A stretch of DNA of 64,000 nt. Source: Blastocatellia bacterium. Its GTDB lineage: Bacteria; Acidobacteriota; Blastocatellia; Chloracidobacteriales; JADJPF01. The translations under genes were made by a program, and so were the position numbers. The notes beneath the pieces were generated by a model. That model had not been told where the DNA came from. It saw only the letters and a program-made list of their open reading frames with translations, and did not search any database. The DNA is taken from assembly GCA_025057015.1 (NCBI GenBank), contig JANWYG010000010.1, forward strand, positions 478,506 through 542,505, in the 5' to 3' direction. Shown here piece after piece: positions 5,227 through 37,648 of this stretch; within the stretch, counting starts at the first letter, position 1, and the number at the start of each line of letters is the position of its first letter.

Positions 5227-6267
5227 ATGAGCATACGAACTATAGGCATACTTACTGGTGGAGGGGATTGTCCTGGACTTAATGCTGCAATACGAGCTGT
5301 GGTTCGTAAGGCAGCTGCTTATGGTATCTCTGTGCTGGGGGTACATAACGGCTGGCTTGGCCTCATACAAGATGAAATCGCTTTGTTGAACCGCTACTCT
5401 ATTTCTGGCATATTGCCGCGAGGAGGTACGATAATAGGTACCTCTCGTATCAACCCGTTCGACAGCAAGGAGTATCTTCAGCGAATACGGGACAATTGGC
5501 ATAAGTATGGGATGCAGGCGCTGATAGTTGTCGGAGGTGATGGTACGCTTAGTGCTGCTACTAGGATGTGGCGTGATGAAGGTTATCCGGTTGTGGGCAT
5601 TCCTAAGACTATAGATAATGACTTGCGGGGTACTGACTATACGTTTGGATTCGACACGGCTGTGGATGTTGCCACAAGTGCTATCGACAGACTGCATACT
5701 ACGGCAGAGTCGCACCATCGCGTAATGGTGGTTGAAGTGATGGGAAGGCATACTGGCTGGATAGCGGCTGCCAGCGCGATAGCAGGTGGTGCTGACATAG
5801 CGCTTGTGCCTGAAGTACCGTTCCGCATTAGCAAAGTCTGCGAGATACTTAAGCGGCGCCGTGAGATGGGTAAGACGTTTTCTATAGTCGTTGTTGCTGA
5901 AGACGCTCGTCCGCATCCAAGCGAGGATTTTCTTACTCCTGAACAACGTAATCAGATTTACAAACACGAACGGCTTGGCGGTATAGGGCAACTGGTCGCA
6001 AACAAAATAGAGCTGCTTACACAGATCCAAGCTCGGGTAACTGTTCTGGGCTACGTACAACGCGGTGGCACTCCGACACCTTTTGACCGTATTCTGGCTA
6101 GTAGGTTTGGTATACACGCTGTCGAGCTTGTCGTAGAAGGCAAGTTTGGGCAGATGGTCGCTATACAGGGTAGCAAGATCACACATGTGCCGCTTGAGTA
6201 TGCGGTAAGCGGCCCTAAGTTACTGAGCGAAGAATTTTACCGTAGTGCAGAGTGCTTCTTTGGATAG
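5227..6267 (+). CDS. pfkA: 6-phosphofructokinase
   Basis: IGILTGGGDCPGLNAAIR, VVGGDGTLS, GIPKTIDNDL, MGRHTGW and LGYVQRGG are present. I chose the ATG at 5227 because MSIRTIGILT is a typical N-terminus. The track's TTG at 5191 is an alternative. Confidence 0.9.
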   Translation: MSIRTIGILTGGGDCPGLNAAIRAVVRKAAAYGISVLGVHNGWLGLIQDEIALLNRYSISGILPRGGTIIGTSRINPFDSKEYLQRIRDNWHKYGMQALIVVGGDGTLSAATRMWRDEGYPVVGIPKTIDNDLRGTDYTFGFDTAVDVATSAIDRLHTTAESHHRVMVVEVMGRHTGWIAAASAIAGGADIALVPEVPFRISKVCEILKRRREMGKTFSIVVVAEDARPHPSEDFLTPEQRNQIYKHERLGGIGQLVANKIELLTQIQARVTVLGYVQRGGTPTPFDRILASRFGIHAVELVVEGKFGQMVAIQGSKITHVPLEYAVSGPKLLSEEFYRSAECFFG

Positions 6268-19951: not shown

Positions 19952-20560
19952 ATGAGTGGAGAAGAGAAGAGGAAAAATGTAGAGAAAGTTGAGGAAATAG
20001 CTTCACAGGCTGCGGTAGCCGATCTTGTGGGCAGCGCAAGCCTCGACAAGATAAGGGACATACTGTTTGGTAATCAGGCACGTGAGTATGAAAAGCGTTT
20101 TGCCCGGCTTGAGGAGCGGTTGATTAAAGAGTCTTCTGAACTCAAAAGTGAAGTAAAGAAGCGTCTCGATATGCTAGAGAGTTATGTAAAGAGGGAAATA
20201 GAGGCTCTGAACGAGCGCTTGAATGCTGAGCATCGCGAACGCGATGAGTCTGTTAAAGCAATAGCCCAGGAACTCAAAGATTCATCTAAATCGCTTGACA
20301 AGCGGGTTGGACAGCTGGACGAGCAGCTTAATAAGTCTCAAAGAGAACTTCGCCAACAGATACTCGATCAGTCGAAAGAACTGACCGATGAGATTATTAA
20401 GAAGCATGAGCAACTTTCTGAGATGATAGAGCGACTTGTTAGGGAGCTTCGTAACGACAAGGCAGATCGGTTTGCTCTGGCAAATCTTTTTACAGAAGTG
20501 GCTATGAAACTGAACAATCAGTTGAAGATGCCGGGAAGCGACCAGTTTCGCAATGGATGA
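19952..20560 (+). CDS. Coiled-coil protein of unknown function (first gene of the GTPase module)
   Basis: 202 aa with a strong RBS (GGGGGAGG). The sequence is E/K/R/L-rich and heptad-like throughout. Its stop overlaps the next gene's start (ATGGATGA). Confidence 0.6.
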   Translation: MSGEEKRKNVEKVEEIASQAAVADLVGSASLDKIRDILFGNQAREYEKRFARLEERLIKESSELKSEVKKRLDMLESYVKREIEALNERLNAEHRERDESVKAIAQELKDSSKSLDKRVGQLDEQLNKSQRELRQQILDQSKELTDEIIKKHEQLSEMIERLVRELRNDKADRFALANLFTEVAMKLNNQLKMPGSDQFRNG

Positions 20561-22286
20561 TGCTTCTAGTAAGGAAGCTCTGCAGGCACTACGTCTTCTC
20601 CTGCTTACTGTAGAGAGTACTTCAGCAGAGAGCGAACAGTTGAGAGAGCTATTGTTGGGTCAGTACGAGTTGGATGAGTTAAGTGCTCTACGTAAGCTGC
20701 TTTTTGGAGAGCAGTTGAGGCAAATAGCTGAACTGCAGAGGCGCCTTGACGATGCTAAGATCCGCAGCCGTGAGGTAAGCCGCATATTGCCAGAGGCTAT
20801 CATACTGCGCGCAGCTAGAGACAAACACCTTGTGAAGGCTCTGTCTCCGGTATTTGAAGAAGCCTTCTTGTCTTTGCTTAGACGTGAACCTCGCAAGTTT
20901 GCTGAATCGATAGCTCCTGTCATAGGACCTGCTGTTCGTAGGTCGATTCAGCTGGCTTTGGCTCAGTTGCTGCAATCTCTCAATCAGACTTTGGATTATG
21001 CTTTATCTATAAAGGGTTGGAGCTGGCGTTGGGAGGCATTTCGCACTGGTAAGCCTTTCGCCGAAGTGGTTATCAGTCATACTCTGCTGTATCGAGTTGA
21101 GCAAGTGTTCCTAATTCATCGTAAGACAGGTCTGCTTTTACAGCACGTAGTAGCTGGAAGCATACAGTTTCAAGACCCTGATCTGGTTTCAGGCATGCTG
21201 ACTGCTATAAAGGACTTCGTGCAAGATTCTTTCGGTGAGACCGAGCGTGGGTTAGAAACCTTGCAGTTAGGCGATTTGGCCGTTTGGATTGAACAAGGAC
21301 CGCATGCAATACTGGCTGTCGTGATCAGAGGGATTGCGCCGCAAAGCTATCGAGCGGTGTTGCAGGACTCTCTGGAAGGCATACACGTAGAGTATGGTTA
21401 TCTTTTAGACGAGTTTGATGGGGATGCTGCTGCTTTTGAGTCTTGCCGTCCGCAGTTAGAAAGATGCTTGCAAATGCAACTAAAAACTAGTCCTGCGTCG
21501 ACAAACAAGGCTGTTCCAGCATTGCTGGCCGTGCTAGGTTTCATTCTTGTTAGTATAGTGGTTTTTGTAGTGTGGTCGATCTATGGACGCTACAGGTTTG
21601 AAGATTTAGTAAGAAGGGTTGATGCAGTTCCCGGAATAGTTGTTTTGTCTGCTGAGAGGCGTGAAGGTAAGTATTTCATTTCTGGATTGCGCGATAGGCT
21701 AGCTGACGAACCGCAAGTAGCTGATGCGTCGGTAGTTGTTAGTTGGGAGGCTTTCCAGTCTTATGAACCGGAAATAGTTAGAAGGCGACTTCTGAGTATG
21801 CTACAACTACCTAGGACAGTTATTATGGAGTTTCGTGATGGGATGCCTAGGTTTACTGGATGGGCTCGCCGGCAATGGTTGGTACGAGCGCAGGAAGTGG
21901 TGACGGCTATTGGAGTAGATAAGGCAGACTTTTCGGGTGTGGTCGACTTGGATTCTGTAAGAGAGCGACTGGAAGCACGAGAGCTGTACTTTTCGAGCGG
22001 AACGCAGCTTGTAGATGGGCAAAGGATAGATGCTATAGTCTCCGATCTGAAGCTGCTTGACGAAGCTAAAAAAGCTTTTGGCATACGTGTTGAGATATTA
22101 GGTTATGCGGATAGGAGGACGGGTACAAAGAGGGTTAATTTGTGGTTAAGCACTGCTCGTGCGCAGAGGATACGGGATATGCTAGTTGCTGAAGGTATTG
22201 ATCCTGCTTTGCTTGAGGCTAGAGCTGACAAAGATTTTCTAGAACAGCGTAAAGTGAAGCTTAGAGTATTTCTGCTTCAGGAGTGA
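20553..22286 (+). CDS. Bitopic membrane protein: cytoplasmic helical plus possible Roadblock-like region, one TM helix, periplasmic OmpA/MotB-like peptidoglycan-binding C-terminus
   Basis: 577 aa. The TM segment is VPALLAVLGFILVSIVVFVVWSI (residues about 320-343). The C-terminal sequence ILGYADRRTGTKRVNLWLSTARAQRIRDMLVAEGI is OmpA_C-like. It is coupled to both neighbouring genes. Confidence 0.75.
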   Translation: MDDASSKEALQALRLLLLTVESTSAESEQLRELLLGQYELDELSALRKLLFGEQLRQIAELQRRLDDAKIRSREVSRILPEAIILRAARDKHLVKALSPVFEEAFLSLLRREPRKFAESIAPVIGPAVRRSIQLALAQLLQSLNQTLDYALSIKGWSWRWEAFRTGKPFAEVVISHTLLYRVEQVFLIHRKTGLLLQHVVAGSIQFQDPDLVSGMLTAIKDFVQDSFGETERGLETLQLGDLAVWIEQGPHAILAVVIRGIAPQSYRAVLQDSLEGIHVEYGYLLDEFDGDAAAFESCRPQLERCLQMQLKTSPASTNKAVPALLAVLGFILVSIVVFVVWSIYGRYRFEDLVRRVDAVPGIVVLSAERREGKYFISGLRDRLADEPQVADASVVVSWEAFQSYEPEIVRRRLLSMLQLPRTVIMEFRDGMPRFTGWARRQWLVRAQEVVTAIGVDKADFSGVVDLDSVRERLEARELYFSSGTQLVDGQRIDAIVSDLKLLDEAKKAFGIRVEILGYADRRTGTKRVNLWLSTARAQRIRDMLVAEGIDPALLEARADKDFLEQRKVKLRVFLLQE

Positions 22287-22771
22287 AGGTGCAAAAGAAA
22301 GTGTGCATGGTCGGTGGTTTTGCCGTAGGGAAAACGAGTCTTGTAGCTCGCTTTGTGAAGAGCATTTTCTCTGAAAAGTATCTAACTACGGTAGGGGTCA
22401 AGATAGACAAGAAAGTAGTGCGTGTGAACGATAAGGAAATTACCTTGATATTGTGGGATTTGGCAGGCGAAGACGAATTTCTACAAGTACGGATGTCCTA
22501 TCTGCGAGGTTGTGCTGGATATTTGCTTGTTGCAGATGGCACGCGGCTTCCTACGTTGGAAAAGGCAGCCGATTTGCGCAGTCGAATAGAACGGGAACTG
22601 GGCCGGTTACCTTTTGTGCTGGCCGTAAATAAGCTTGATCTTGACAAACAGTGGGAGGTAGACGACGCTGCTATAAGAGATTTTGGAGCTGCAACTTGGG
22701 TAAAGACTAGCGCGAAAACTGGTGAAGGGGTCGAGGAAGCTTTTGCTATGCTAGTCAGACAAACGTGTTAG
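22283..22771 (+). CDS. Ras/Rab-like small GTPase
   Basis: G1 is GGFAVGKTS, switch I is YLTTVGV, G3 is WDLAGED, G4 is NKLD and G5 is TSAK. GTG 22283 overlaps the upstream stop (GTGA). GTG 22289 is an alternative start, 5 nt after AGGAG. Confidence 0.85.
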   Translation: MKVQKKVCMVGGFAVGKTSLVARFVKSIFSEKYLTTVGVKIDKKVVRVNDKEITLILWDLAGEDEFLQVRMSYLRGCAGYLLVADGTRLPTLEKAADLRSRIERELGRLPFVLAVNKLDLDKQWEVDDAAIRDFGAATWVKTSAKTGEGVEEAFAMLVRQTC

Positions 22772-22802
22772 TGTCTGGCAGACAAAAGCAAATATAGGTC
22801 AT

Positions 22803-24668
22803 ATGACACAAGATGTATTATTGGCTGATCTTTTTAATACTTTAGACATAGTGGTGTTTGAGAGAGTAGAGGAGGAGCTTTTCAAGCTGCTTACGCCGTT
22901 GCCTAGTTGGTTTATTAGGCTGTGTCCTGAGGGAGTTGTAGGCAGAGAGATACGTCTTGTAGGTAAGTTTGAGTTTTTGGACAATTTTCTGGTAGATGCC
23001 GAGTTACATTGGCAGAAGGGTAGTGGCAGGCTGAGATCTGGGCCTTGGCATGAGCTGGATGAGCAGAAAGTCGAGTATGTGCTAGAGGCCTCGGCTGTTT
23101 CGATCGGATCAAAGCGGTTGCTGTTGATAGAGTTTCTGAAGGTTAGCTATAAAGAACTAGAAACGATAGTTCAAAAAGCTCGGTTGAACAGCTTGCTGAT
23201 ATCTAGTTTGCTTAGGCAGCAGCGTAGCCTTGATGAAGATCGTAGAGCTGCGCTTGAAGCAAGCCGCTTCAAGAGTGAGTTTTTGGCAAACGTTAGCCAC
23301 GAAATACGCACTCCGCTGAATGCTGTGATAGGTTTAAGTGGCTTATTGATGGAGACTCCTCTTAGTGAAGTACAAAAAGAGCTTGTACAAACTGTGCGGA
23401 AAAGTGGTGAAGCGTTGCTTGATCTGGTAAACGACATATTAGATCTATCTAAGATAGAAGCTGGCAAGATAGATCTTGAAGTTCAAGAATTTGATCTTCG
23501 TAAGTGTATTGAAGAAGCCTTAGCCCTTGTAGGAGTTAGGGCAGCGGAAAAGAGCATCGATTTGGCTTACAGTATAGATGTTGGTGTGGGAGATTGTTTT
23601 ATTGGTGATGTAACGAGGCTGCGTCAGATTTTGGTAAATCTGCTTGGGAATGCCGTCAAGTTTACTGAGCAAGGGGAAGTGGTCTTGACGGTCAGCTGCG
23701 TTGACGGAGATTTGTTTTTTCGGATAAGGGACACTGGGATAGGGATAGAAAGGGAGAAGCTAGACAAGATTTTTCGGCCTTTTACTCAAGCTAGTAGTGC
23801 TGTGGCACTTAAGTATGGTGGTACGGGGTTAGGTTTGGCGATAAGTAAGAAGCTAGTTGAGCTCATGGGTGGGACAATCGGAGTTGAAAGTGAGCTGGGC
23901 AAGGGCTCATGTTTCTATTTCACTCTGCCGGTTAAACCTACAGCAACAGGGCTCTATCGGCATCTTGAAGAAGTTCAGCCGTGGCTTTTAGGCAAAAAAG
24001 TGCTGATCTCGGTTTCTGCTAAAACGACGCAGCGCTTGTTGATTGAACAGTGTGAGCGTTGGGGAATGCAAGTGCTTGCTGCTGATGCGGCAACTACTTG
24101 TGATGTTGCTATCGTGGATGCTGAGGGTGTTGGCGTGCGGGCAATGGCCGGCCGAATCCTTTTGTCTTATGTAGGGGCAAATCTAGGGGGAAGGGATTTT
24201 CTGGTATTGCCTAGGCCGTTTAGTCCCGACAGGTTGTATTACTTGCTTGCTAGGATCTTCGACCAGCTTGTCGAGAAGGATGCTGTCAGCGCAGGGCCGA
24301 TAGGTAAAAGGCTAAAGATACTGCTTGCTGAAGATCATCCGATTAATCAAAAAGTTACGTTGCTAATGCTTAAAAGCTTAGGTCAAGAAGCTGACGTTGT
24401 GGCAAACGGTCTAGAAGCCATAGAAGCGCTGCGGCGGAGGCATTACGATCTCGTCCTTATGGACGTTAACATGCCTGAAATGGACGGTCTTGAGGCTACG
24501 CGCGAGATCTGCCGATTATGGCCAGAAGGTAGGCCAAAGATAGTGGCTATGACGGCGAGTGCTATGCAAAGCGACCGCGAAGAATGTTTGCTTGCAGGAA
24601 TGGATAACTATATTACCAAACCTATACGCATTGAAGAGCTTCGCAAGTTACTCCAAGAATTGACCTAA
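22803..24668 (+). CDS. Soluble hybrid sensor histidine kinase (unknown N-terminal domain, HisKA, HATPase_c, degenerate REC-like spacer, REC)
   Basis: The H-box is [14 protein letters not shown] and the N-box is LGNAVKFT. G-boxes are DTGIGI and [11 protein letters not shown]. The C-terminal receiver has [11 protein letters not shown]...[13 protein letters not shown]...TKP. No TM segment was seen. Confidence 0.9.
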
Positions 24669-24727: not shown

Positions 24728-24961
24728 ATGAAGAAGTACGAAGAAGGTGTAGTCAGCAAATATCAGCTGATAAATGTAGCAGCTAGACGGTGCAGGCAAC
24801 TGCGCAGTGGTGCTACACCGAGGATACAATACAGCAGGAGCAAAAACTTCGCTCGGATCGCGTTAGAGGAAGTCAAGGCTGGAAAAGTGGGTTTTGAGCA
24901 ATTAGCAGTGCCTGCTCGACAAACAGTAGATGATAGCGAAGGGCTGCCAGTTGGGCTGTAG
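24728..24961 (+). CDS. rpoZ: DNA-directed RNA polymerase omega subunit
   Basis: 77 aa. YQLINVAARRCRQLRSGA matches the omega core helix. The RBS is GGGAGG. Confidence 0.8.
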   Translation: MKKYEEGVVSKYQLINVAARRCRQLRSGATPRIQYSRSKNFARIALEEVKAGKVGFEQLAVPARQTVDDSEGLPVGL

Positions 24962-25762: not shown

Positions 25763-25859
25763 AAAGACTTTATACCTTCCTGGTGTGGCGATTTTTTCTT
25801 CTTTTGAATGTCAATGCTGTAGATAATACCCTAAACTGTTTTTGGGAGAGAAAGAGAGT

Positions 25860-26804
25860 ATGCTTAAGGTCGGGCTTCTTGTTGGCCGTGAGCGGTCTTT
25901 TCCTGATGCTTTGATCGCAGAGATAAACGGTCGTAACTGTGGTGTCGAAGCCGAGTATGTCAAAGTAGGAGAGTTTGCTGCTGGTAGCTCGACGGAGTAC
26001 CAAGTGATAGTTGATAGGATCTCGCATGAGGTGGTCTTCTATCAGCCGTTTCTGAAGGCTTGTGCTCTTGCCGGCAGCTACATCATAAACAATCCTTTTT
26101 GGCGACTGGCTGACGATAAGTTTTTTGGGGTGAATTTAGCTGAAAAGCTTGGTATAGCAGTACCTAAGACTATGATACTGCCGTCGCGTAGCTATCCTGA
26201 GAGCATAATCTCGGAGAGTTTGCGTAATCTCAAGCTGATCGACTGGGAAGAGGTGGTGGCATACACAGGACTACCAGCTTTCTTGAAACCACATTGGGGC
26301 GGTGGGTGGAAAGATGTAAGCAAAGTAAACAGCATACATCAGTTGATAGAGCGGTATAACCGCTCTGGTCAGTTGTGTATGATGGTACAAGAGGAGATCA
26401 AATGGCAGCAGTATGTACGCTGCATAGTCATAGGTCGTAAAGAGGTGTTGATCACGAACTGGGATCCAACGAAGCCACACTTTGAAAGGTACAAGGACTC
26501 TCATCAGAAACTTTCGCCAAAACTTGAACAGACCGTTCGTGAGCAAGCAATCAAGCTGAACGAAGCTCTTGGCTATGACATGAACACTGTAGAGTTCGCC
26601 ATACGTGATGGCGTACCTTATGCTATAGACTTTATGAATTCCGCACCGGACTTCGATATTACTTCGTTGACAGAGAGGTATTTTCCATGGGTAGTCAAGG
26701 TTATGGCCGATTTATGTATAGAGAAGGCCCAACAAGTGGCTCAGAGTAAACCTGTCTATAGGTGGGACTATTTGATAAACATCGCTGCTGGAGGCAAGAA
26801 GTGA
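25860..26804 (+). CDS. ATP-grasp family ligase (RimK / glutathione-synthetase-like)
   Basis: The N-terminus MLKVGLLVG is followed by an ATP-grasp-like core (AVPKT, PAFLKPHWGGGWKDV, MVQEEI, MNTVEFAI.DG.PYAIDFMN). A GGGAGAG RBS supports ATG 25860. Confidence 0.7.
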   Translation: MLKVGLLVGRERSFPDALIAEINGRNCGVEAEYVKVGEFAAGSSTEYQVIVDRISHEVVFYQPFLKACALAGSYIINNPFWRLADDKFFGVNLAEKLGIAVPKTMILPSRSYPESIISESLRNLKLIDWEEVVAYTGLPAFLKPHWGGGWKDVSKVNSIHQLIERYNRSGQLCMMVQEEIKWQQYVRCIVIGRKEVLITNWDPTKPHFERYKDSHQKLSPKLEQTVREQAIKLNEALGYDMNTVEFAIRDGVPYAIDFMNSAPDFDITSLTERYFPWVVKVMADLCIEKAQQVAQSKPVYRWDYLINIAAGGKK

Positions 26805-28147
26805 AAGTTTCAGAAGCAAGAGATTATTATCATGGACTGCTTGAACGCCATCTCGATTCTACTGTGGAGCTACTACATAGAGGTTCGCTGGAAAATGGCT
26901 TGTACTTTGGTAGTCGCTCAGTATGTACGGTTCTGAGGCCGTACTTTATAGACCGTGAGACGTATGCTTTCGTCAAGCGGGCTTCTGAGTTGGTTATGCG
27001 GGCTGTAGCGCGGCTGGGAGAATTGTTACTGACTGAGGCTGAGCTTCGGCGAGAGCTTGATCTGGAGCCGCAGGAAGAGGCTGTAGCTCTGATACCTTCG
27101 GGTTTCGGTAATCCTGACGTTAGTGCTAGGCTCGACGGTTTTCTCGCTCCCGAGGGAGAGTTTTACTTTGTCGAATATAATGCCGAAAGTCCAGGTGGGC
27201 TGGCTTATGGTGATGTACTGGCAGAGATTTTTATGCAGATGCCTGTTATGAAAGAATTTTGCGATAGGTATAAATGTAGCATCTTCCCGGTACGTGAGCG
27301 AGTCTATGAAAACCTCATTGCTGCATATCACCGTTGGGGCGGACATGATCTGCCGAACATAGCTATAGTTGACTGGTCAGGAGTTAGTACATACAGCGAA
27401 TTTGTCCTGATGAAGAAGCGTTTTGAAGAGCGTGGCTGTAAGGTTGTCATCTGCGATCCGGATGAGTTGGAGTATCGAAATGGTAGGCTTTACAGAGAGG
27501 ATTTCTGCATCGATCTGGTCTATAAGCGTGTCATAATAGGCGAATTGCTTACCCGCAAGGGTATAGACCATCCGATTTTCCAAGCTGCTAGAGATCGGGC
27601 AGTCTGTGTCTCAAACGGGATGGGCGTACAGATGCTTTACAAGAAGGCTATGTTTGCTTTGCTAAGTGATCCCGTTTTTTCTGCTCAACTTGGCTTAGAC
27701 GACGAGCTAGCTGCTGCGTGTAACAAGTATATACCTTGGACACGCAAACTACGTAGCTGTAAGACTAAATATGGTGATAAGGAGGTAGACCTTGTCGAGT
27801 TCACGTTCGAGAACAAAGAGCGTTTAGTGCTCAAGCCGAACGGAGAATATGGTGGTAAGGGAGTTGTGCTGGGTTGGGAAGCCTCGGATGAGCTTTGGAA
27901 AGATACTGTAAAGGAAGCACTTGACGGTGCGTCTTATCTGGTACAAGAGCGTGTTCCTCTTGGACGTGATATCTATCCAAGTTATATCGATGGTAAACTT
28001 GTCTTTGATGAGCGTTATGTGGATATAGACCCTTATGTATGGAATGGCACGCAGATAGAAGGTGCAGGTATAAGGCTCTCGAAGTTGGCTCTGCTGAACG
28101 TAAGTGCTGGAGGTGGATCGGCTACGCCTTTGGTGGTACTCGAATAA
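26801..28147 (+). CDS. ATP-grasp superfamily protein, glutathionylspermidine-synthase-like / circularly permuted type
   Basis: The GTG start at 26801 overlaps the upstream stop (GTGA) and sits 7 nt after GGAGG. RLDGF..GEFYFVEYNAESPGG, LVLKPNGEYGGKGVVLG and LVQERV are present. The subfamily assignment is from memory. Confidence 0.6.
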   Translation: MKVSEARDYYHGLLERHLDSTVELLHRGSLENGLYFGSRSVCTVLRPYFIDRETYAFVKRASELVMRAVARLGELLLTEAELRRELDLEPQEEAVALIPSGFGNPDVSARLDGFLAPEGEFYFVEYNAESPGGLAYGDVLAEIFMQMPVMKEFCDRYKCSIFPVRERVYENLIAAYHRWGGHDLPNIAIVDWSGVSTYSEFVLMKKRFEERGCKVVICDPDELEYRNGRLYREDFCIDLVYKRVIIGELLTRKGIDHPIFQAARDRAVCVSNGMGVQMLYKKAMFALLSDPVFSAQLGLDDELAAACNKYIPWTRKLRSCKTKYGDKEVDLVEFTFENKERLVLKPNGEYGGKGVVLGWEASDELWKDTVKEALDGASYLVQERVPLGRDIYPSYIDGKLVFDERYVDIDPYVWNGTQIEGAGIRLSKLALLNVSAGGGSATPLVVLE

Positions 28148-34455: not shown

Positions 34456-34845
34456 ATGTCGAAGAGAATACTTGTAGTAGATGATGAAGAAGGAGTCAGA
34501 AAGCTGTTTAGGCAGCTGTTTGTCGGACGTGGGTATGAAGTGGTGGAGGCAGAAAACGGCAAGGTTGCCGTGGAGATAGCAGCACTACAGTTACCTGACT
34601 TGGTAGTGATTGATTTAGTTATGCCTGTGATGAATGGCGTAGAAGCCACCAAACAGATACGCAAGATGCCGGGTGGAGAGAATGTACCGATAATAGCGGT
34701 GACGGCTTATAGTCTTTCTGAGCTAGTCATTCATCCTGAAGAGACAAGCCTTTGGGACGCTATCGTACTAAAGCCTGTAGAGCTTGATAAGCTCTGTAAA
34801 GTCTCGGAGGAGCTTTTCTCGGATCGTTTGATAAGATCTACCTAA
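34456..34845 (+). CDS. Single-domain (CheY-like) response regulator
   Basis: 129 aa. ILVVDDEE, LVVIDLVMPVMNG, AVTA and LKP provide the complete set of receiver residues. The RBS is strong (GGAGAAGAGGATAGGAG). Confidence 0.85.
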   Translation: MSKRILVVDDEEGVRKLFRQLFVGRGYEVVEAENGKVAVEIAALQLPDLVVIDLVMPVMNGVEATKQIRKMPGGENVPIIAVTAYSLSELVIHPEETSLWDAIVLKPVELDKLCKVSEELFSDRLIRST

Positions 34846-35286: not shown

Positions 35287-35967
35287 CTACCTTTTTATCA
35301 TCCTGCTGATATCCATAGCCATGGTAATCTGATCGGCTACCTCGTATGCTTCAAAGGAGAAGAACAGCAGCGCTGAGGACATAATTTCCCTTACAGCTTG
35401 CTCTCCGAGTTTGTTGCCGAACTTGGCGTGTACTGCATGGCCGCCTTCGAAGAAGATAACTCCTTTTTCATTAGGGCGGGACATGGTAGATAGCTTGCCG
35501 CTCAGCGAGTGGCGGACGATCATCTCTATTAGCTGAGGTAGTGTAAGCTGTATCAATGGGTTAGAAGGAGTCGGCACGAGGCCTATCGTACCTTTCTTGT
35601 GTCTGCGCAAAACGCTGTTTACCCTTAGCAGCAGCTCTTGTACTGAGAAAGGTTTGCCCACGTAGTCATCGGCACCGACATCCATACCTGCAAGCCGTTC
35701 TTCGTCCTCTCGCTTACCACTCAGGAAGATGAAAGGGATGTTTTTGAAGGCTGGGTCTAGGCGTACCAGTTGGCAAACTTCTAGTCCTCCAATGCCAGGC
35801 ATCATAACGTCACTGATGATTAGGTCAAAGGCCCCGTGGTCCTTGAGCATTTTCATAGCCATAATGCCGCCGTTTGCTTCCATTACCTCGTGGCCGCCTA
35901 ATTCAAGTGCCAGTCGCCCGGCCATTCTTACTTCGTCTTCGTCATCGATGATCAAAATCCTTGCCAT
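35287..35967 (-). CDS. Response regulator: REC domain plus C-terminal DUF4388/PATAN-like domain
   Basis: The REC domain shows [27 protein letters not shown] and GKPF. The C-terminus [18 protein letters not shown]...[29 protein letters not shown]...FSFE fits the DUF4388 pattern. ATG 35967 follows a GGGAG RBS and avoids overlapping the mutase gene. Confidence 0.8.
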
Positions 35968-35980
35968 TATTTTAACTCCC

Positions 35981-37648
35981 TTAGAACATAGGTTCTTCGT
36001 ATGTTCCAAAGACTTCTTTTAAGGTATCACAGATTTCGCCTAGTGTGGCGTATGCTTTCACACAGTCGAGGATAAGCGGCATGGTGTTTGCTGTACCTGC
36101 TGCACCTTGCTTGAGGGCATCAAGTGTTTGGTGAACTTTTTCGTTATTACGCTTTCTGCGCAACGCTGCTAGTCGCTCACGCTGTAACCGCTCTACGGAT
36201 TCATCTATCTGTAACAGGGGCACTTTTTGTTCTTCTTCGATGACGTATTCATTTACTCCTACCATTATTTTTTCCTTGCGTTCTAGCGCTTTTTGGAATT
36301 CGTAGGCAGCTTCTTGTATCTCTCGCTGTGGAAAGCCGGCTTCGATAGCGGCTATCATGCCGCCCATTGCGTCAATACGGTCGAAGTACTCAAAGGCTCC
36401 CTTCTCCATATCGTTGGTGAGCTTTTCTACAAAGTAGCTGCCTGCTAGCGGGTCTACGGTGTTAATGACGCCAGACTCGGCGGCTATTATCTGCTGTGTG
36501 CGTAGTGCTATAAGCACGGCATGCTCTGATGGTAGAGCGAGTGTTTCGTCTAGAGAGTTGGTGTGTAACGAGTTTGTTCCGCCGAGTATGGCAGCCAGTG
36601 CCTGTATAGCTACGCGCACGACGTTGTTGTAAGGTTGCTGGGCTGTAAGTGTACAGCCTGCTGTTTGGGCATGACAACGCAACATCCACGAGCGCTCGTT
36701 TTTAGCTCCGAAGCGTTCACGCATAACTTTTGCCCAGATTCTGCGGGCCGCTCTGAATTTGGCTATTTCCTCGAAAAAGTCATTATGCGAATTGAAAAAG
36801 AAGCTAAGTCGAGGAGCAAAGTCGTCTACCTCAAGGCCTGCATCCATTGCCGATTGCACATACTCTATGCCGTTGCGCAAGGTGAAGGCTAATTCTTGTA
36901 GCGCAGTAGAACCTGCTTCGCGTATGTGGTAGCCAGAGATGGAAATCGTGTTCCATCTTGGCACGTGCTTGCTACAGAAGGCAAAGATGTCGGTAATCAG
37001 TCTCATGCTAGGCCGCGGCGGGTATATCCATTCCTTCTGAGCGATGTATTCTTTGAGAATGTCGTTTTGGAGCGTGCCAGAGATCTTCTTCCAATCAGCA
37101 CCTTGTTTTTCTGCCACGGCCAAGTACATGGCAAAGATTACAGATGCCGGAGCGTTGATTGTCATCGAGGTAGTTACTTTTTCAAGCGGTATCCCCTCAA
37201 ATAGCTGCTCCATATCTTCTAAGCTAGAGATAGCAACACCGCACTTACCAACTTCACCTTCGCTAGTCGGATGATCTGAATCGAGACCCATGAGAGTTGG
37301 CAAATCAAACGCTACTGACAGGCCGTCCTGACCTTGGCTTAGCAAGTACTTAAAGCGCTTGTTAGTATCTTCTGCTGACCCAAAACCTGCAAACTGCCGC
37401 ATTGTCCACAGTTTGCCTCTATAGCCAGTAGCGTGTATACCTCGTGTGTAAGGATATTGACCGGGAAAGCCAAGATCCCGCTCATAATCGAAGTCGGGTA
37501 TGTCATTAGGTGTATAGAGCCGTTTAATAGGTGTCAGTGAAACAGTTGTAAACCTCTCATATCGCTCTGGCATGCGTTTGAGTGTAGGTTTGAGGACGTT
37601 TTCTTCCCACCGCTTTTCTGCTTCTTCAAGTTTATCTGTTACTTTCAT
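35981..37648 (-). CDS. Methylmalonyl-CoA mutase-type large subunit (catalytic TIM-barrel domain)
   Basis: 555 aa. [52 protein letters not shown] and HAQTAG..LTAQQP are acyl-CoA mutase motifs. Confidence 0.95.

What the first reader, a model, noticed from the sequence alone, without database searches (positions are those of the whole stretch)
19952..24668. Conservon-like small-GTPase signalling module anchored to the cell envelope
Four same-strand genes form a tight unit. The first three are translationally coupled, through an ATGGATGA overlap at 20553-20560 and a GTGA overlap at 22283-22286. The fourth starts 31 nt later. The first gene encodes a 202-aa coiled-coil protein. The second encodes a 577-aa bitopic protein. 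Its cytoplasmic half has a helical region plus a roughly 110-aa segment (residues about 176-290, nt about 21078-21422: VEQVFLIHRKTGLLLQHV..DPDLVSGMLTAIKDFVQDSF..LAVWIEQGPHAILAVVIRG). The hydrophobic periodicity of that segment reminds me of Roadblock/LC7/MglB. One TM helix follows, then a periplasmic region and an OmpA/MotB-like peptidoglycan-binding end. The third gene encodes a Ras/Rab-like GTPase, and the fourth a TM-less hybrid histidine kinase with an unassigned N-terminal domain. Two precedents are established: Streptomyces conservons (CvnA kinase-like sensor, CvnB Roadblock/LC7, CvnC, CvnD GTPase) and the MglA/MglB pairs. I do not recognise a described system that joins a Ras-like GTPase, a MotB-like peptidoglycan anchor, a coiled-coil partner and a phosphorelay kinase. 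The inference is a G-protein switch that couples envelope status to two-component signalling, or the reverse.
Basis: partly seen in the sequence, partly recalled or inferred. Interest (0 to 1): 0.75.

Follow-up and report, generated by a model that had tools for sequence, protein, structure and literature searches.

The report
Known Rup small-GTPase signalling module
This four-gene cluster is a real, widely conserved bacterial signalling module built around a Rab/Ras-like GTPase, but it was already described by comparative genomics in 2014 as the "Group 1 Rup" system; what is new here is a new phylum and fold assignments for its two unknown domains.

Summary
The claim that no such system has been described is wrong. 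Wuichet & Søgaard-Andersen (2014, PMC4316618) defined the "Group 1 Rup" neighbourhood DUFY>DUFX:OmpA>Rup>output. It comprises a coiled-coil protein, an unknown-domain/TM/OmpA protein, a Ras-like GTPase lacking the catalytic Gln, and a kinase or GGDEF/EAL protein whose N-terminal domain has an invariant Gln. The window meets every feature I could test. In 47 related loci from five phyla, the GTPase is adjacent in 42 of 44 evaluable loci and a signalling output gene follows it in 39 of 39. No sequence-level signal supports it. The kinase's unassigned N-domain is a divergent PAS fold, and its Jα helix carries the conserved Q-x-A-R. Most likely the envelope-anchored longin-like protein regulates the GTPase, which then controls the kinase through the PAS domain. 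This is inferred, and the system has not been tested experimentally. Verdict: new member (Acidobacteriota) of a known, uncharacterised kind.

The parts
19952..20560 (+). ORF1 ('DUFY'): 202-aa soluble helical/coiled-coil protein with a conserved N-terminal motif, LDKIRDILFG (res 31-40, nt 20042-20071)
   Evidence: ORF. No Pfam family reaches its cut-off. No Pro and one Gly in res 45-190. A small ORF with the LxRI[KR][DE]ILFG motif sits directly upstream of the ORF2 homolog in 46 of 46 loci.
20553..21080 (+). ORF2 ('DUFX') residues 1-176: cytoplasmic long-helix region, including the conserved LSALRKLLFG (res 43-52) and PVIGPAVR (res 122-129) motifs
   Evidence: AF2 model helices 4-176, pLDDT 62-91. 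Invariant P122, P126, A127, R129, N144, W158, R159 and E171 in 75 sequences. No Pfam or PDB sequence match.
21081..21467 (+). ORF2 residues 177-305: longin/Roadblock-like alpha/beta domain (beta-beta-alpha-beta-beta-beta-alpha-alpha), with the most conserved helix at 208-227 (DPDLVSGMLTAIKDFVQDSF)
   Evidence: AF2 block-mean pLDDT 72-97 across residues 181-300, and 89-97 from residue 241. The Foldseek PDB top 50 are all longin/Roadblock proteins: AP sigma, Mon1-Ccz1, MglB, Rag CTD, LAMTOR, Sec22b, MglC and LC7 (E down to 1.4e-4, TM by target up to 0.74). There is no sequence-level signal.
21510..21587 (+). ORF2 single transmembrane helix (about res 320-345); it contains no Asp
   Evidence: Kyte-Doolittle 19-residue maximum of 2.97 at res 323, the only segment above 1.6.
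21588..21962 (+). ORF2 residues 346-470: conserved juxtamembrane periplasmic module (GIVV..G.Y.ISGLRD.. / ..W..), possibly BON-like
   Evidence: Conserved columns in A1. The module is tandemly duplicated in the ~720-aa class of homologs. The profile alignment to Rv0899 (2l26) extends upstream of its OmpA-like domain. One homolog carries a Pfam BON domain. The fold was not modelled.
21963..22286 (+). ORF2 residues 471-577: OmpA/MotB-like peptidoglycan-binding domain, with the motif GYAD520...N529LWLSTAR536A retained
   Evidence: Pfam OmpA 30.2 bits. Family profile against PDB OmpA-like domains E=2.4e-12. OmpA found in 74 of 74 homologs. Motif positions.
22283..22771 (+). ORF3: Rup (Ras/Rab-like) GTPase, 162 aa. 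G1 GGFAVGKT (res 11-18), G2 YLTTVGV (33-39), G3 DLAGE (59-63, Glu in place of Gln61), G4 NKLD (116-119), G5 SAK (143-145)
   Evidence: Pfam Ras 7.6e-33. Motif census of 43 family members: Phe at Ras position 12 in 43 of 43 and Gln61 absent in 41 of 43. The closest solved structures are Rab23, Rab4, Rab32 and a Thorarchaeota Rab.
22803..23249 (+). ORF4 residues 1-149: divergent PAS-like domain (1-114) plus a Jα-type helix (115-149) carrying Q124-K-A126-R127 (nt 23172-23183); also P34-x-W36 and S79-G-x-W82
   Evidence: AF2 pLDDT 93.9. The Foldseek PDB top 50 are all PAS/LOV, including LOV-histidine-kinase chimeras. Q-x-A-R is invariant in 26 of 26 locus-derived sequences and at least 90% conserved in the 71- and 94-member sets. 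No Pfam hit.
23271..24668 (+). ORF4 residues 157-621: HisKA (H-box SHEIRTPLN, res 165-173), HATPase_c (268-378) and a C-terminal receiver domain (506-617, DLVLMD)
   Evidence: Pfam; motif positions.

Best explanation
What it is: an Acidobacteriota (Blastocatellia) copy of the Group 1 Rup small-GTPase signalling system. I put the probability of that identity at about 0.9.

Shown:
- Four co-conserved genes encode (i) a soluble coiled-coil protein, (ii) a bitopic inner-membrane protein, (iii) a Rab/Ras-like GTPase and (iv) a soluble hybrid histidine kinase.
- The cytoplasmic half of (ii) is a helical region followed by a domain predicted to have a longin/Roadblock fold. Its periplasmic half ends in an OmpA-like peptidoglycan-binding domain.
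- The GTPase (iii) has intact nucleotide-binding motifs but lacks the catalytic Gln and has Phe at Ras position 12.
- The only input domain of the kinase (iv) is a family-specific PAS fold.

Inferred mechanism:
1. The membrane protein is fixed to, or senses, the peptidoglycan layer. It passes that state through its single TM helix to the cytoplasmic helical and longin-like module, probably together with the coiled-coil partner.
2. Like other longin/Roadblock platforms, that module binds the Rup GTPase and controls its nucleotide state or membrane recruitment, as a GEF or a GAP. Probability about 0.5.
3. The active GTPase binds the PAS-like domain of the kinase and changes kinase activity through the Jα helix. 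The signal therefore runs envelope protein, then GTPase, then kinase and phosphorelay. Probability of this direction about 0.65.
4. Because the GTPase lacks its own catalytic Gln, hydrolysis probably needs a residue supplied in trans. The conserved Q124 (proposed in 2014) and R127 on the Jα helix are candidates. Probability about 0.25.
For: Identity: Wuichet & Søgaard-Andersen 2014 describe the same four components and the gene order DUFY>DUFX:OmpA>Rup. The window meets their features: Ras-like G1-G5 with G3 lacking Gln, an adjacent coiled-coil gene, an unknown domain plus TM plus OmpA, and an output N-domain with the conserved Gln.

Functional linkage: the coiled-coil gene is present in 46 of 46 loci, the GTPase is adjacent in 42 of 44 evaluable loci, and an output gene directly follows the GTPase in 39 of 39 evaluable loci across five phyla. 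The 4-nt stop/start overlap is conserved.

Regulator role of ORF2: the longin/Roadblock fold is confidently modelled, and the structural matches are only GTPase-platform proteins such as MglB, Mon1-Ccz1, Rag/LAMTOR and AP sigma. Its central helix is the most conserved stretch of the family.

Direction of flow: the PAS-like N-domain family has 713 representatives. It is fused to HK, REC, Hpt, HD-GYP, GGDEF, EAL, Ser/Thr-kinase and PP2C modules, or stands alone. This is the pattern of a shared input domain placed ahead of interchangeable outputs. ORF4 has no TM segment or other sensor domain. The PAS model resembles LOV-Jα-kinase proteins, in which the Jα helix transmits the signal.

Need for a trans-acting catalytic residue: Gln61 is absent in 41 of 43 GTPases and Phe12 is invariant.
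Against:
- The fold does not say whether the domain acts as a GEF, a GAP or only a docking site.
- Q124 and R127 sit on a helix that in PAS kinases usually forms a dimeric coiled coil, so their conservation could reflect signal transmission rather than catalysis.
- Phe at position 12 would hinder a Ras-GAP-style arginine finger (from established knowledge of Ras G12 mutants).
- Two Desulfobacteraceae loci keep the coiled-coil and membrane genes without an adjacent GTPase, so the membrane pair can exist apart from it.
- Nothing shows what the periplasmic part senses.
Confidence: 0.6

Rival explanations
1. Conservon-type logic. The histidine kinase is the sensor or input, the Roadblock-like protein is the GAP, and the GTPase is the output of the system, as proposed for the actinobacterial Cvn systems.
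For: The parts list is similar: kinase, Roadblock-fold protein and small GTPase. Wuichet & Søgaard-Andersen themselves draw the analogy. MglB, a Roadblock GAP, is among the structural matches.
Against: - ORF4 is soluble, and its only input is the family-specific PAS domain.
- That PAS domain is fused to many alternative output modules or stands alone, so the kinase looks like an interchangeable output.
- There is no DUF742/CvnC and no PF03259 match.
- The GTPase is Ras/Rab-type with DxxG in G3, not the MglA-type GTPGQ.
Confidence: 0.12
2. Spatial landmark rather than sensor. The OmpA-anchored protein and the coiled-coil partner form an immobile, peptidoglycan-fixed site, for example at a pole or septum. 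This site recruits the GTPase and through it localises the kinase, as MglA/MglB polarity modules do. No envelope signal is read.
For: An OmpA-like anchor with an intact peptidoglycan-binding motif. A coiled-coil partner. A Roadblock/longin fold of the kind used by MglB and MglC in polarity control.
Against: The neighbourhoods contain no motility or division genes, and the flanks differ between loci. The GTPase lacks the MglA hallmarks. A conserved periplasmic module that is sometimes duplicated suggests more than a passive anchor. This rival is not excluded, and it is compatible with parts of the best explanation.
Confidence: 0.13
3. Non-cycling GTPase. With Gln61 replaced and Phe at position 12, the GTPase is permanently GTP-bound, like Rnd or RhoH proteins. 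It would act as a constitutive adaptor whose availability is controlled by sequestration on the membrane protein, not by a GEF/GAP cycle.
For: Gln61 is absent in 41 of 43 sequences and Phe12 is present in 43 of 43. In Ras, both positions are those where substitutions abolish hydrolysis (established knowledge).
Against: All nucleotide-binding motifs and switch regions are strictly conserved. Other GTPases without the Gln, such as Rap and the HAS-GTPases, do cycle using residues supplied in trans (and established knowledge). A conserved Gln/Arg pair exists on the partner.
Confidence: 0.12
4. Stator-like or Zorya-like envelope machine or anti-phage system. It would pair a MotB/ZorB-like peptidoglycan anchor with a ZorA-tail-like coiled coil.
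For: Weak hits of ORF1 to ZorA tails (NCBIfam E=0.0037; PADLOC 21 bits or less). ORF2 has an OmpA-like end similar to MotB and ZorB.
Against: The hits are low-scoring coiled-coil matches, and equally weak hits go to LmuB, JetC and LeoA. There is no MotA/ExbB/TolQ-like partner nearby and no Asp in the TM helix. ORF2 and the GTPase have no PADLOC hit. There is no effector nuclease, and the flanks are housekeeping genes.
Confidence: 0.02

Closest known systems
Group 1 Rup GTPase system (Wuichet & Søgaard-Andersen 2014, Genome Biol Evol 7:57; examples Ava_0879, Npun_F1891, NIDE0273, sce5816, mlr3243)
   Same: The gene order DUFY>DUFX:OmpA>Rup>output. A Ras-like GTPase of 158-181 aa without the G3 Gln. 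A coiled-coil partner. An unknown domain followed by a TM helix and OmpA. An output kinase whose N-terminal domain has the conserved Gln.
   Different: The phylum: Acidobacteriota does not appear among the 27 published Group 1 members. The output here is a hybrid HK-REC.

This analysis adds points I did not find in the parts of the paper I read:
- a longin/Roadblock-like fold for DUFX;
- a PAS-Jα fold for the output N-domain;
- a conserved Arg three residues after the Gln;
- invariant Phe at Ras position 12;
- further outputs (sigma54 activator, HD-GYP, Ser/Thr kinase, PP2C, stand-alone forms).
Actinobacterial conservons / AGPS (CvnA-D; Mfp system)
   Same: A small GTPase, a Roadblock-fold protein and a histidine kinase encoded together. 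The GTPase switch is wired to two-component-type signalling.
   Different: - The conservon GTPase is MglA Group 2 (GTPGQ), not Ras/Rab-like.
- CvnB is a stand-alone PF03259 protein. Here the fold is embedded in a membrane protein and has no sequence similarity.
- CvnC/DUF742 is absent.
- CvnA is a membrane HAMP kinase regarded as the input. Here the kinase is soluble and looks like the output.
- Conservons have no OmpA anchor and no coiled-coil partner.
MglA/MglB (Myxococcus, Thermus)
   Same: A Roadblock-fold regulator paired with a small GTPase. MglB structures (3t12, 3t1r, 1j3w) are among the matches to ORF2 177-305.
   Different: MglA has a TVPGQ G3 and an intrinsic Arg finger, whereas ORF3 has DLAGE and no such Arg. 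MglB is soluble. That system controls polarity and motility and has no fused envelope anchor.
Eukaryotic longin/Roadblock GTPase platforms (Mon1-Ccz1, TRAPP, Ragulator-Rag, GATOR1, FLCN-FNIP, AP sigma) with Rab/Arf/Rag GTPases
   Same: The predicted fold of ORF2 177-305. The partner GTPase is most similar in sequence to Rabs (Rab23, 88 bits).
   Different: There is no detectable sequence homology. The context is a bacterial membrane protein with a peptidoglycan anchor. No GEF or GAP activity has been shown.
LOV/PAS-Jα histidine kinases (YF1, short LOV proteins)
   Same: The predicted architecture of ORF4 1-149: N-cap, PAS core and a long Jα helix leading into HisKA.
   Different: No Pfam PAS match and no flavin-binding Cys motif was examined. 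The presumed input is a protein (the GTPase), not a cofactor.

Membership tests
Group 1 Rup system | Small GTPase with Ras-superfamily G1-G5 motifs, including Asp in G3 (DxxG) | tested here: met
   GGFAVGKT, YLTTVGV, DLAGE, NKLD and SAK; Pfam Ras 7.6e-33.
Group 1 Rup system | Catalytic Gln of G3 absent | tested here: met
   Glu63 occupies the Ras Gln61 position. Gln is absent in 41 of 43 family members from related loci.
Group 1 Rup system | Adjacent gene for a cytoplasmic coiled-coil protein (DUFY) | tested here: met
   ORF1 overlaps the ORF2 start by 8 nt. A homolog or positional equivalent carrying the ILFG motif is present in 46 of 46 loci.
Group 1 Rup system | Adjacent gene for a conserved unknown domain (DUFX) followed by a TM helix and a C-terminal OmpA domain | tested here: met
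   ORF2: no Pfam match for residues 1-330, one TM segment at 320-345, and OmpA at 500-565.
Group 1 Rup system | Gene order DUFY>DUFX:OmpA>Rup | tested here: met
   The same order as Ava_0879, Npun_F1891 and others in the published Table S2.
Group 1 Rup system | Fourth gene is a signalling output (HK or GGDEF/EAL) whose N-terminal region has an invariant Gln | tested here: met
   ORF4 is a hybrid HK. Q124 is conserved in 26 of 26 locus-derived sequences and in at least 90% of the wider sets.
Group 1 Rup system | Phylogenetic placement of the GTPase inside the published Group 1 clade | not tested
Indirect support: 55-58% identity to GTPases in cyanobacterial and acidobacterial loci with the same neighbourhood.
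Conservon (CvnA-D / AGPS) | MglA Group 2 GTPase with a GTPGQ G3 motif | tested here: not met
   The G3 motif is DLAGE, and the best Pfam and PDB matches are Ras/Rab. Definition.
Conservon (CvnA-D / AGPS) | Stand-alone MglB-type Roadblock/LC7 protein (CvnB, PF03259) | tested here: not met
   No PF03259 hit at E<=10. A similar fold exists only as an internal domain of ORF2.
Conservon (CvnA-D / AGPS) | CvnC protein (DUF742) | tested here: not met
   No such Pfam hit in any of the four proteins.
Conservon (CvnA-D / AGPS) | Membrane sensor kinase with HAMP and a C-terminal LPxR motif | tested here: not met
   ORF4 has no TM segment, no HAMP hit, and ends in a receiver domain.
MglA/MglB module | MglA-type G3 (TVPGQ) and an intrinsic Arg finger next to the G2 Thr | tested here: not met
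   G2 is YLTTVGV and G3 is DLAGE. Definition.
Roadblock/longin fold superfamily | Alpha/beta sandwich with beta-beta-alpha-beta-beta-beta order and flanking helices | tested here: met
   Predicted only. AF2 elements are E180-189, E195-200, H209-227, E236-239, E242-248, E252-260, H264-286 and H293-305. All 50 top Foldseek hits belong to this superfamily.
Roadblock/longin fold superfamily | Sequence-profile similarity to a Roadblock/LC7 or longin family | tested here: not met
   A profile of residues 165-310 against PDB gave only three unrelated hits with E>0.5. Pfam at E<=10 gave nothing relevant.
Roadblock/longin fold superfamily | Dimeric platform that binds a small GTPase | not testable with these tools
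   No multimer prediction or experiment was available.
PAS domain | Five-stranded antiparallel sheet with intervening helices, N-cap and C-terminal helix | tested here: met
   Predicted only. AF2 pLDDT is 93.9, and all 50 top Foldseek hits are PAS/LOV. No Pfam PAS match.
OmpA-like peptidoglycan-binding domain (PF00691) | Pfam match above the gathering score, with the conserved Asp/Arg of the D..G....N..LS..RA motif | tested here: met
   30.2 bits against 27.2. Family profile E=2.4e-12. GYAD520 and STAR536A are present. The role of these residues comes from established knowledge of OmpA-like domains.
MotB/ZorB-type stator subunit | Conserved Asp in the TM helix and an adjacent MotA/ExbB/TolQ/ZorA channel gene | tested here: not met
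   The TM segment VPALLAVLGFILVSIVVFVVWSIY has no Asp. The neighbours are metH, the module itself, rpoZ and yggS. PADLOC gives only weak coiled-coil hits.

The most novel reading that the evidence does not exclude
The cytoplasmic longin/Roadblock-like domain of the membrane protein is the cognate nucleotide-state regulator (GEF or GAP) of a bacterial Rab/Ras-like GTPase, and the PAS-Jα Q-x-A-R of the effector supplies catalytic residues in trans. If so, the eukaryotic pairing of Rab-type GTPases with longin/Roadblock platforms, and a dual-finger style of GAP catalysis, would have a bacterial counterpart. In that counterpart the cycle is tied to the cell wall and reads out through two-component, c-di-GMP or sigma54 signalling.
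Probability: 0.25. Interest if true: 0.8.

Novelty: new member of a known kind. Interest (0 to 1): 0.45.

Why it matters
Group 1 Rup GTPases are the bacterial proteins most similar to eukaryotic Rab/Ras/Rho/Ran, and they have been proposed as the source of that branch by horizontal transfer. No member has been studied experimentally in the literature I could search.

The partner membrane protein is predicted to carry a longin/Roadblock fold, and the effector is predicted to use a PAS-Jα input. Together these turn a list of "domains of unknown function" into specific, cheap experiments on who is the GEF, the GAP and the effector.

The module is also widespread. The ORF2 search returned more than 1,900 homologs among the 8,000 candidates scored, and the PAS-like domain has 713 representatives at 50% identity. 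It feeds into several major bacterial signalling outputs. For this particular window, however, the result is that the locus is an ordinary member of a system already described.

Tried and rejected
- HrmK lead: the NCBIfam hit of ORF4 to HrmK is only HK-core similarity, and a literature search gave nothing relevant.
- Homology searches with the ORF4 N-domain: the single sequence found nothing and a 19-sequence profile found one hit, because of the word prefilter. The exhaustive HMMER search solved this.
It worked with ids from the representative search.
- Shared N-terminal motif of ORF1 and ORF2: hhalign aligns them in register (ORF1 26-47 with ORF2 38-59), but over only 22 columns at P=0.04. 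This is suggestive, not established.
- Rosetta-stone fusions: the ~720-aa ORF2 homologs are a periplasmic-module duplication, not fusions to ORF1 or the GTPase.
- Defence-system hypothesis: PADLOC gives only coiled-coil noise.
- Sequence-level Roadblock/longin homology: none.
- The promoter and terminator scan is at chance level and says nothing about transcription units.
- There are no paralogous copies of the module in the window.
- Synteny with metH and rpoZ is not conserved in other loci, so those genes are not part of the system.

Full report
**1. The observation**

The ATGGATGA and GTGA overlaps and the 31-nt spacer are in the sequence. A second GTG at 22289, with GGAG five bases upstream, is a possible alternative GTPase start. 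However, 25 of 32 collinear homologous loci show the same 4-nt stop/start overlap, which favours 22283.

Pfam confirms the domain calls: OmpA at ORF2 residues 500-565, Ras for ORF3 (7.6e-33), and HisKA, HATPase_c and a receiver domain in ORF4. A profile of the ORF2 family matches solved OmpA-like domains at 2.4e-12. ORF2 has one hydrophobic segment (about 320-345) and the other three proteins have none. ORF1 residues 45-190 have no proline and are 44% charged.

The flanking genes are housekeeping genes: metH upstream, and rpoZ and a YggS-family gene downstream. They are not conserved next to the module elsewhere. The organism is a Blastocatellia (Acidobacteriota) MAG.

**2. It is a described system**

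Wuichet & Søgaard-Andersen (2014, PMC4316618) surveyed prokaryotic Ras-superfamily GTPases and defined the "Rup" family. Its Group 1 members sit in a conserved neighbourhood with three further genes:
- a predicted cytoplasmic coiled-coil protein;
- a signalling output, either a histidine kinase or a GGDEF/EAL protein, whose N-terminal region holds an invariant glutamine.

Group 1 Rup GTPases lack the catalytic Gln of G3, and the authors proposed that the Gln is supplied in trans. Their Table S2 writes the neighbourhood as DUFY>DUFX:OmpA>Rup> with GTPases of 158-181 aa. This is the window's arrangement. None of their 27 Group 1 members is from Acidobacteria. I found no later paper on this system in the searchable library, and the 2014 paper states that no Rup protein had been characterised experimentally.

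**3. Testing the defining features here**

I collected 47 loci encoding an ORF2 relative from reference genomes of Desulfobacterota, Acidobacteriota, Cyanobacteria, Bacteroidota and Chlorobiota.
- Coiled-coil gene: a small ORF with an LxRI[KR][DE]ILFG motif lies directly upstream in 46 of 46 loci with an intact 5' side.
- GTPase: it is adjacent in 42 of 44 evaluable loci. In 33 it is immediately downstream and collinear. In 9 Desulfobacterales loci it is divergently transcribed upstream.
- Output gene: one directly follows the GTPase in 39 of 39 evaluable loci. These are 28 histidine kinases, one GGDEF-EAL protein, two stand-alone N-domain proteins and eight sigma54-type activators.
- GTPase motifs in 43 sequences: G1 is Gx-F-A-VGKT with Phe invariant at Ras position 12. 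G2, G4 and G5 are canonical. The Gln61 position is E, L, N or H in 41 of 43; the window has Glu.
- Output N-domain: P-x-W, S-G-x-W and Q-x-A-R are invariant in 26 locus-derived sequences. In wider sets of 71 and 94 proteins, Q124 and R127 are at least 90% conserved.

Every Group 1 Rup feature I could test is met. The one feature left untested is phylogenetic placement among the published sequences.

**4. What the unknown domains are**

An AlphaFold2 model of residues 1-331, built with 74 homologs, has mean pLDDT 80.7 and reaches 89-97 over most of residues 241-300. It shows long helices up to residue 176, then strands at 180-189 and 195-200, a helix at 209-227, strands at 236-239, 242-248 and 252-260, and helices at 264-286 and 293-305.

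In a Foldseek search of the PDB, all 50 best matches belong to the longin/Roadblock superfamily:
- AP-complex sigma subunits;
- the Rab7 GEF Mon1-Ccz1;
- MglB, including its complex with MglA;
- the Rag C-terminal domains and LAMTOR;
- TRAPP subunits;
- the Sec22b longin domain (TM 0.74 by target, rmsd 2.9 Å);
- MglC and dynein LC7.

The "unassigned" N-terminal domain of the kinase gives a very confident model (pLDDT 93.9, built with 70 homologs). Its 50 best structural matches are all PAS/LOV domains. The best are short LOV proteins and engineered LOV-histidine-kinase chimeras, which share its N-cap helix and long C-terminal Jα helix. Q124, A126 and R127 lie on that Jα helix (residues 115-149), about 30 residues before the HisKA domain.

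An exhaustive HMMER search finds 713 representatives of this domain at the 50% clustering level. Among 94 members of 250 aa or more, the attached domains are HATPase_c (68), receiver (26), additional PAS (21), Hpt (13), HD/HD-GYP (6), GGDEF (4), EAL (2), a Ser/Thr kinase and a PP2C phosphatase. Of the best 150 hits, 42 are short stand-alone proteins.

**5. How it most likely works**

Shown: the four genes are a co-inherited unit, and the domain architectures are as described above.

Inferred:
- Direction of flow. The kinase has no sensor other than the family-specific PAS domain, and that domain precedes many interchangeable output modules. The kinase is therefore the output, and the conserved trio lies upstream.
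- Role of ORF2. Longin and Roadblock domains are the recurrent platforms that bind small GTPases and act as GEFs (Mon1-Ccz1, TRAPP, Ragulator) or GAPs (MglB, GATOR1, FLCN-FNIP). This is established knowledge of those families. The cytoplasmic module of ORF2 is thus the best candidate regulator or membrane receptor of the Rup GTPase. Its central helix (208-227) is the most conserved stretch of the family.
- Periplasmic side. It carries a conserved juxtamembrane module, duplicated in a ~720-aa subclass, and an OmpA-like domain with the peptidoglycan-binding Asp/Arg motif retained. ORF2 is therefore fixed to the cell wall or reports on it.
- Hydrolysis. With no Gln61 and Phe at position 12, the GTPase should have very low intrinsic hydrolysis. 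Either a partner supplies catalytic residues, with Q124 and R127 as candidates, or the protein does not cycle.

The fold cannot tell whether ORF2 is a GEF, a GAP or a docking site. The role of Q124 and R127 is equally compatible with ordinary Jα signalling. My probabilities are: identity as a Group 1 Rup system about 0.9; flow from GTPase to kinase about 0.65; ORF2 as direct GTPase regulator about 0.5; Q/R as trans-acting catalytic residues about 0.25.

**6. Rivals**

- Conservon-type logic fails four of its defining features: an MglA-type GTPase, a stand-alone PF03259 protein, DUF742, and a membrane HAMP kinase.
- A purely spatial-landmark role like MglA/MglB polarity is not excluded. It lacks support from gene context, and the GTPase lacks the MglA hallmarks.
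- A permanently GTP-bound adaptor is possible given positions 12 and 61.
- A stator-like or Zorya-like machine is effectively excluded. There is no channel partner and no Asp in the TM helix, and ORF1 gives only weak coiled-coil hits.
- Chance juxtaposition is excluded by the conservation statistics.

**7. Comparison and novelty**

The locus is a member of the Group 1 Rup system and works by analogy like conservons and MglA/MglB, without belonging to either. The GTPase is closest in sequence to eukaryotic Rabs (Rab23 at 88 bits) and to an Asgard Rab, and no bacterial member has a solved structure.

Relative to the 2014 description, this analysis adds:
- a new phylum;
- fold assignments for DUFX (helical region plus longin/Roadblock-like domain) and for the output N-domain (PAS-Jα);
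- a conserved Arg beside the Gln;
- invariant Phe at Ras position 12;
- more output types, including a Desulfobacterales variant in which the GTPase is followed by a sigma54 activator.

These are increments on a known kind, so I rate the finding as a new member of a known kind. Its interest is moderate.

Noticed in passing
L001-L004, L006, L013, L039, L045 (e.g. L004 3020-4953, minus strand): In Desulfobacterales the GTPase is transcribed divergently from the coiled-coil/ORF2 pair. It is followed by a sigma54-type activator (its own ~145-aa N-domain, then AAA+, then HTH_8). This output class is not named in the 2014 description.
   Followed up: partly
L009 (Desulfosarcina alkanivorans NZ_AP021874; activator at 5009-3645, coiled-coil gene at 5322-5933) and L010: Two loci keep the coiled-coil and ORF2 genes but have no GTPase within 6 kb. 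In L009 the sigma54 activator sits directly divergent, where the GTPase would be. The membrane pair can therefore exist without an adjacent GTPase.
   Followed up: partly
P0012 and about 20 other ~720-aa ORF2 homologs: The extra ~140 aa is a tandem duplication of the juxtamembrane periplasmic module (GIVV..G.Y..GL.DPLA..P ... W.PYQ ...), not a fusion to another component.
   Followed up: partly
L011 8096-9187 (cyanobacterial MAG): An extra 363-aa gene with no Pfam match lies between the GTPase and the N-domain-GGDEF-EAL protein. By eye, its N-terminus resembles the ~140-aa N-terminal extension of the Bacteroidota kinases (e.g. L015 8212-8630). This was not tested.
   Followed up: no
window 20042-20071 (ORF1 res 31-40) and 20679-20708 (ORF2 res 43-52): ORF1 and ORF2 both begin with a similar L..[IL]R..LFG motif followed by a helix. 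hhalign puts them in register, but over only 22 columns at P=0.04. This may hint at a shared or paired helical segment.
   Followed up: partly
window 22313-22336 (ORF3 res 11-18): Phe at the Ras Gly12 position and Ala at position 13 are invariant in all 43 GTPases of this family that I examined. A bulky residue here would block a Ras-GAP-style arginine finger.
   Followed up: partly
window 25842-26804 and 26762-28147 (+): Two consecutive, slightly overlapping ORFs of 320 and 461 aa have no Pfam match at E<=1e-5.
   Followed up: no
window 34456-34845 (+) and 35287-36009 (-): A stand-alone receiver protein and a 240-aa receiver-domain protein lie about 10 kb downstream. ORF4 has no Hpt domain, so its phosphorelay partners are unidentified. 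Nothing links these two genes to it.
   Followed up: no
window 1-64000: GC skew is positive in all but one of the 2-kb bins and the cumulative skew rises almost monotonically, so the whole window probably lies on one replichore.
   Followed up: no
window 24728-24961 (+): A 77-aa ORF 59 nt after the kinase stop is the RNA polymerase omega subunit (Pfam RNA_pol_Rpb6, 5.6e-11). It was too short to appear in the default ORF list.
   Followed up: yes
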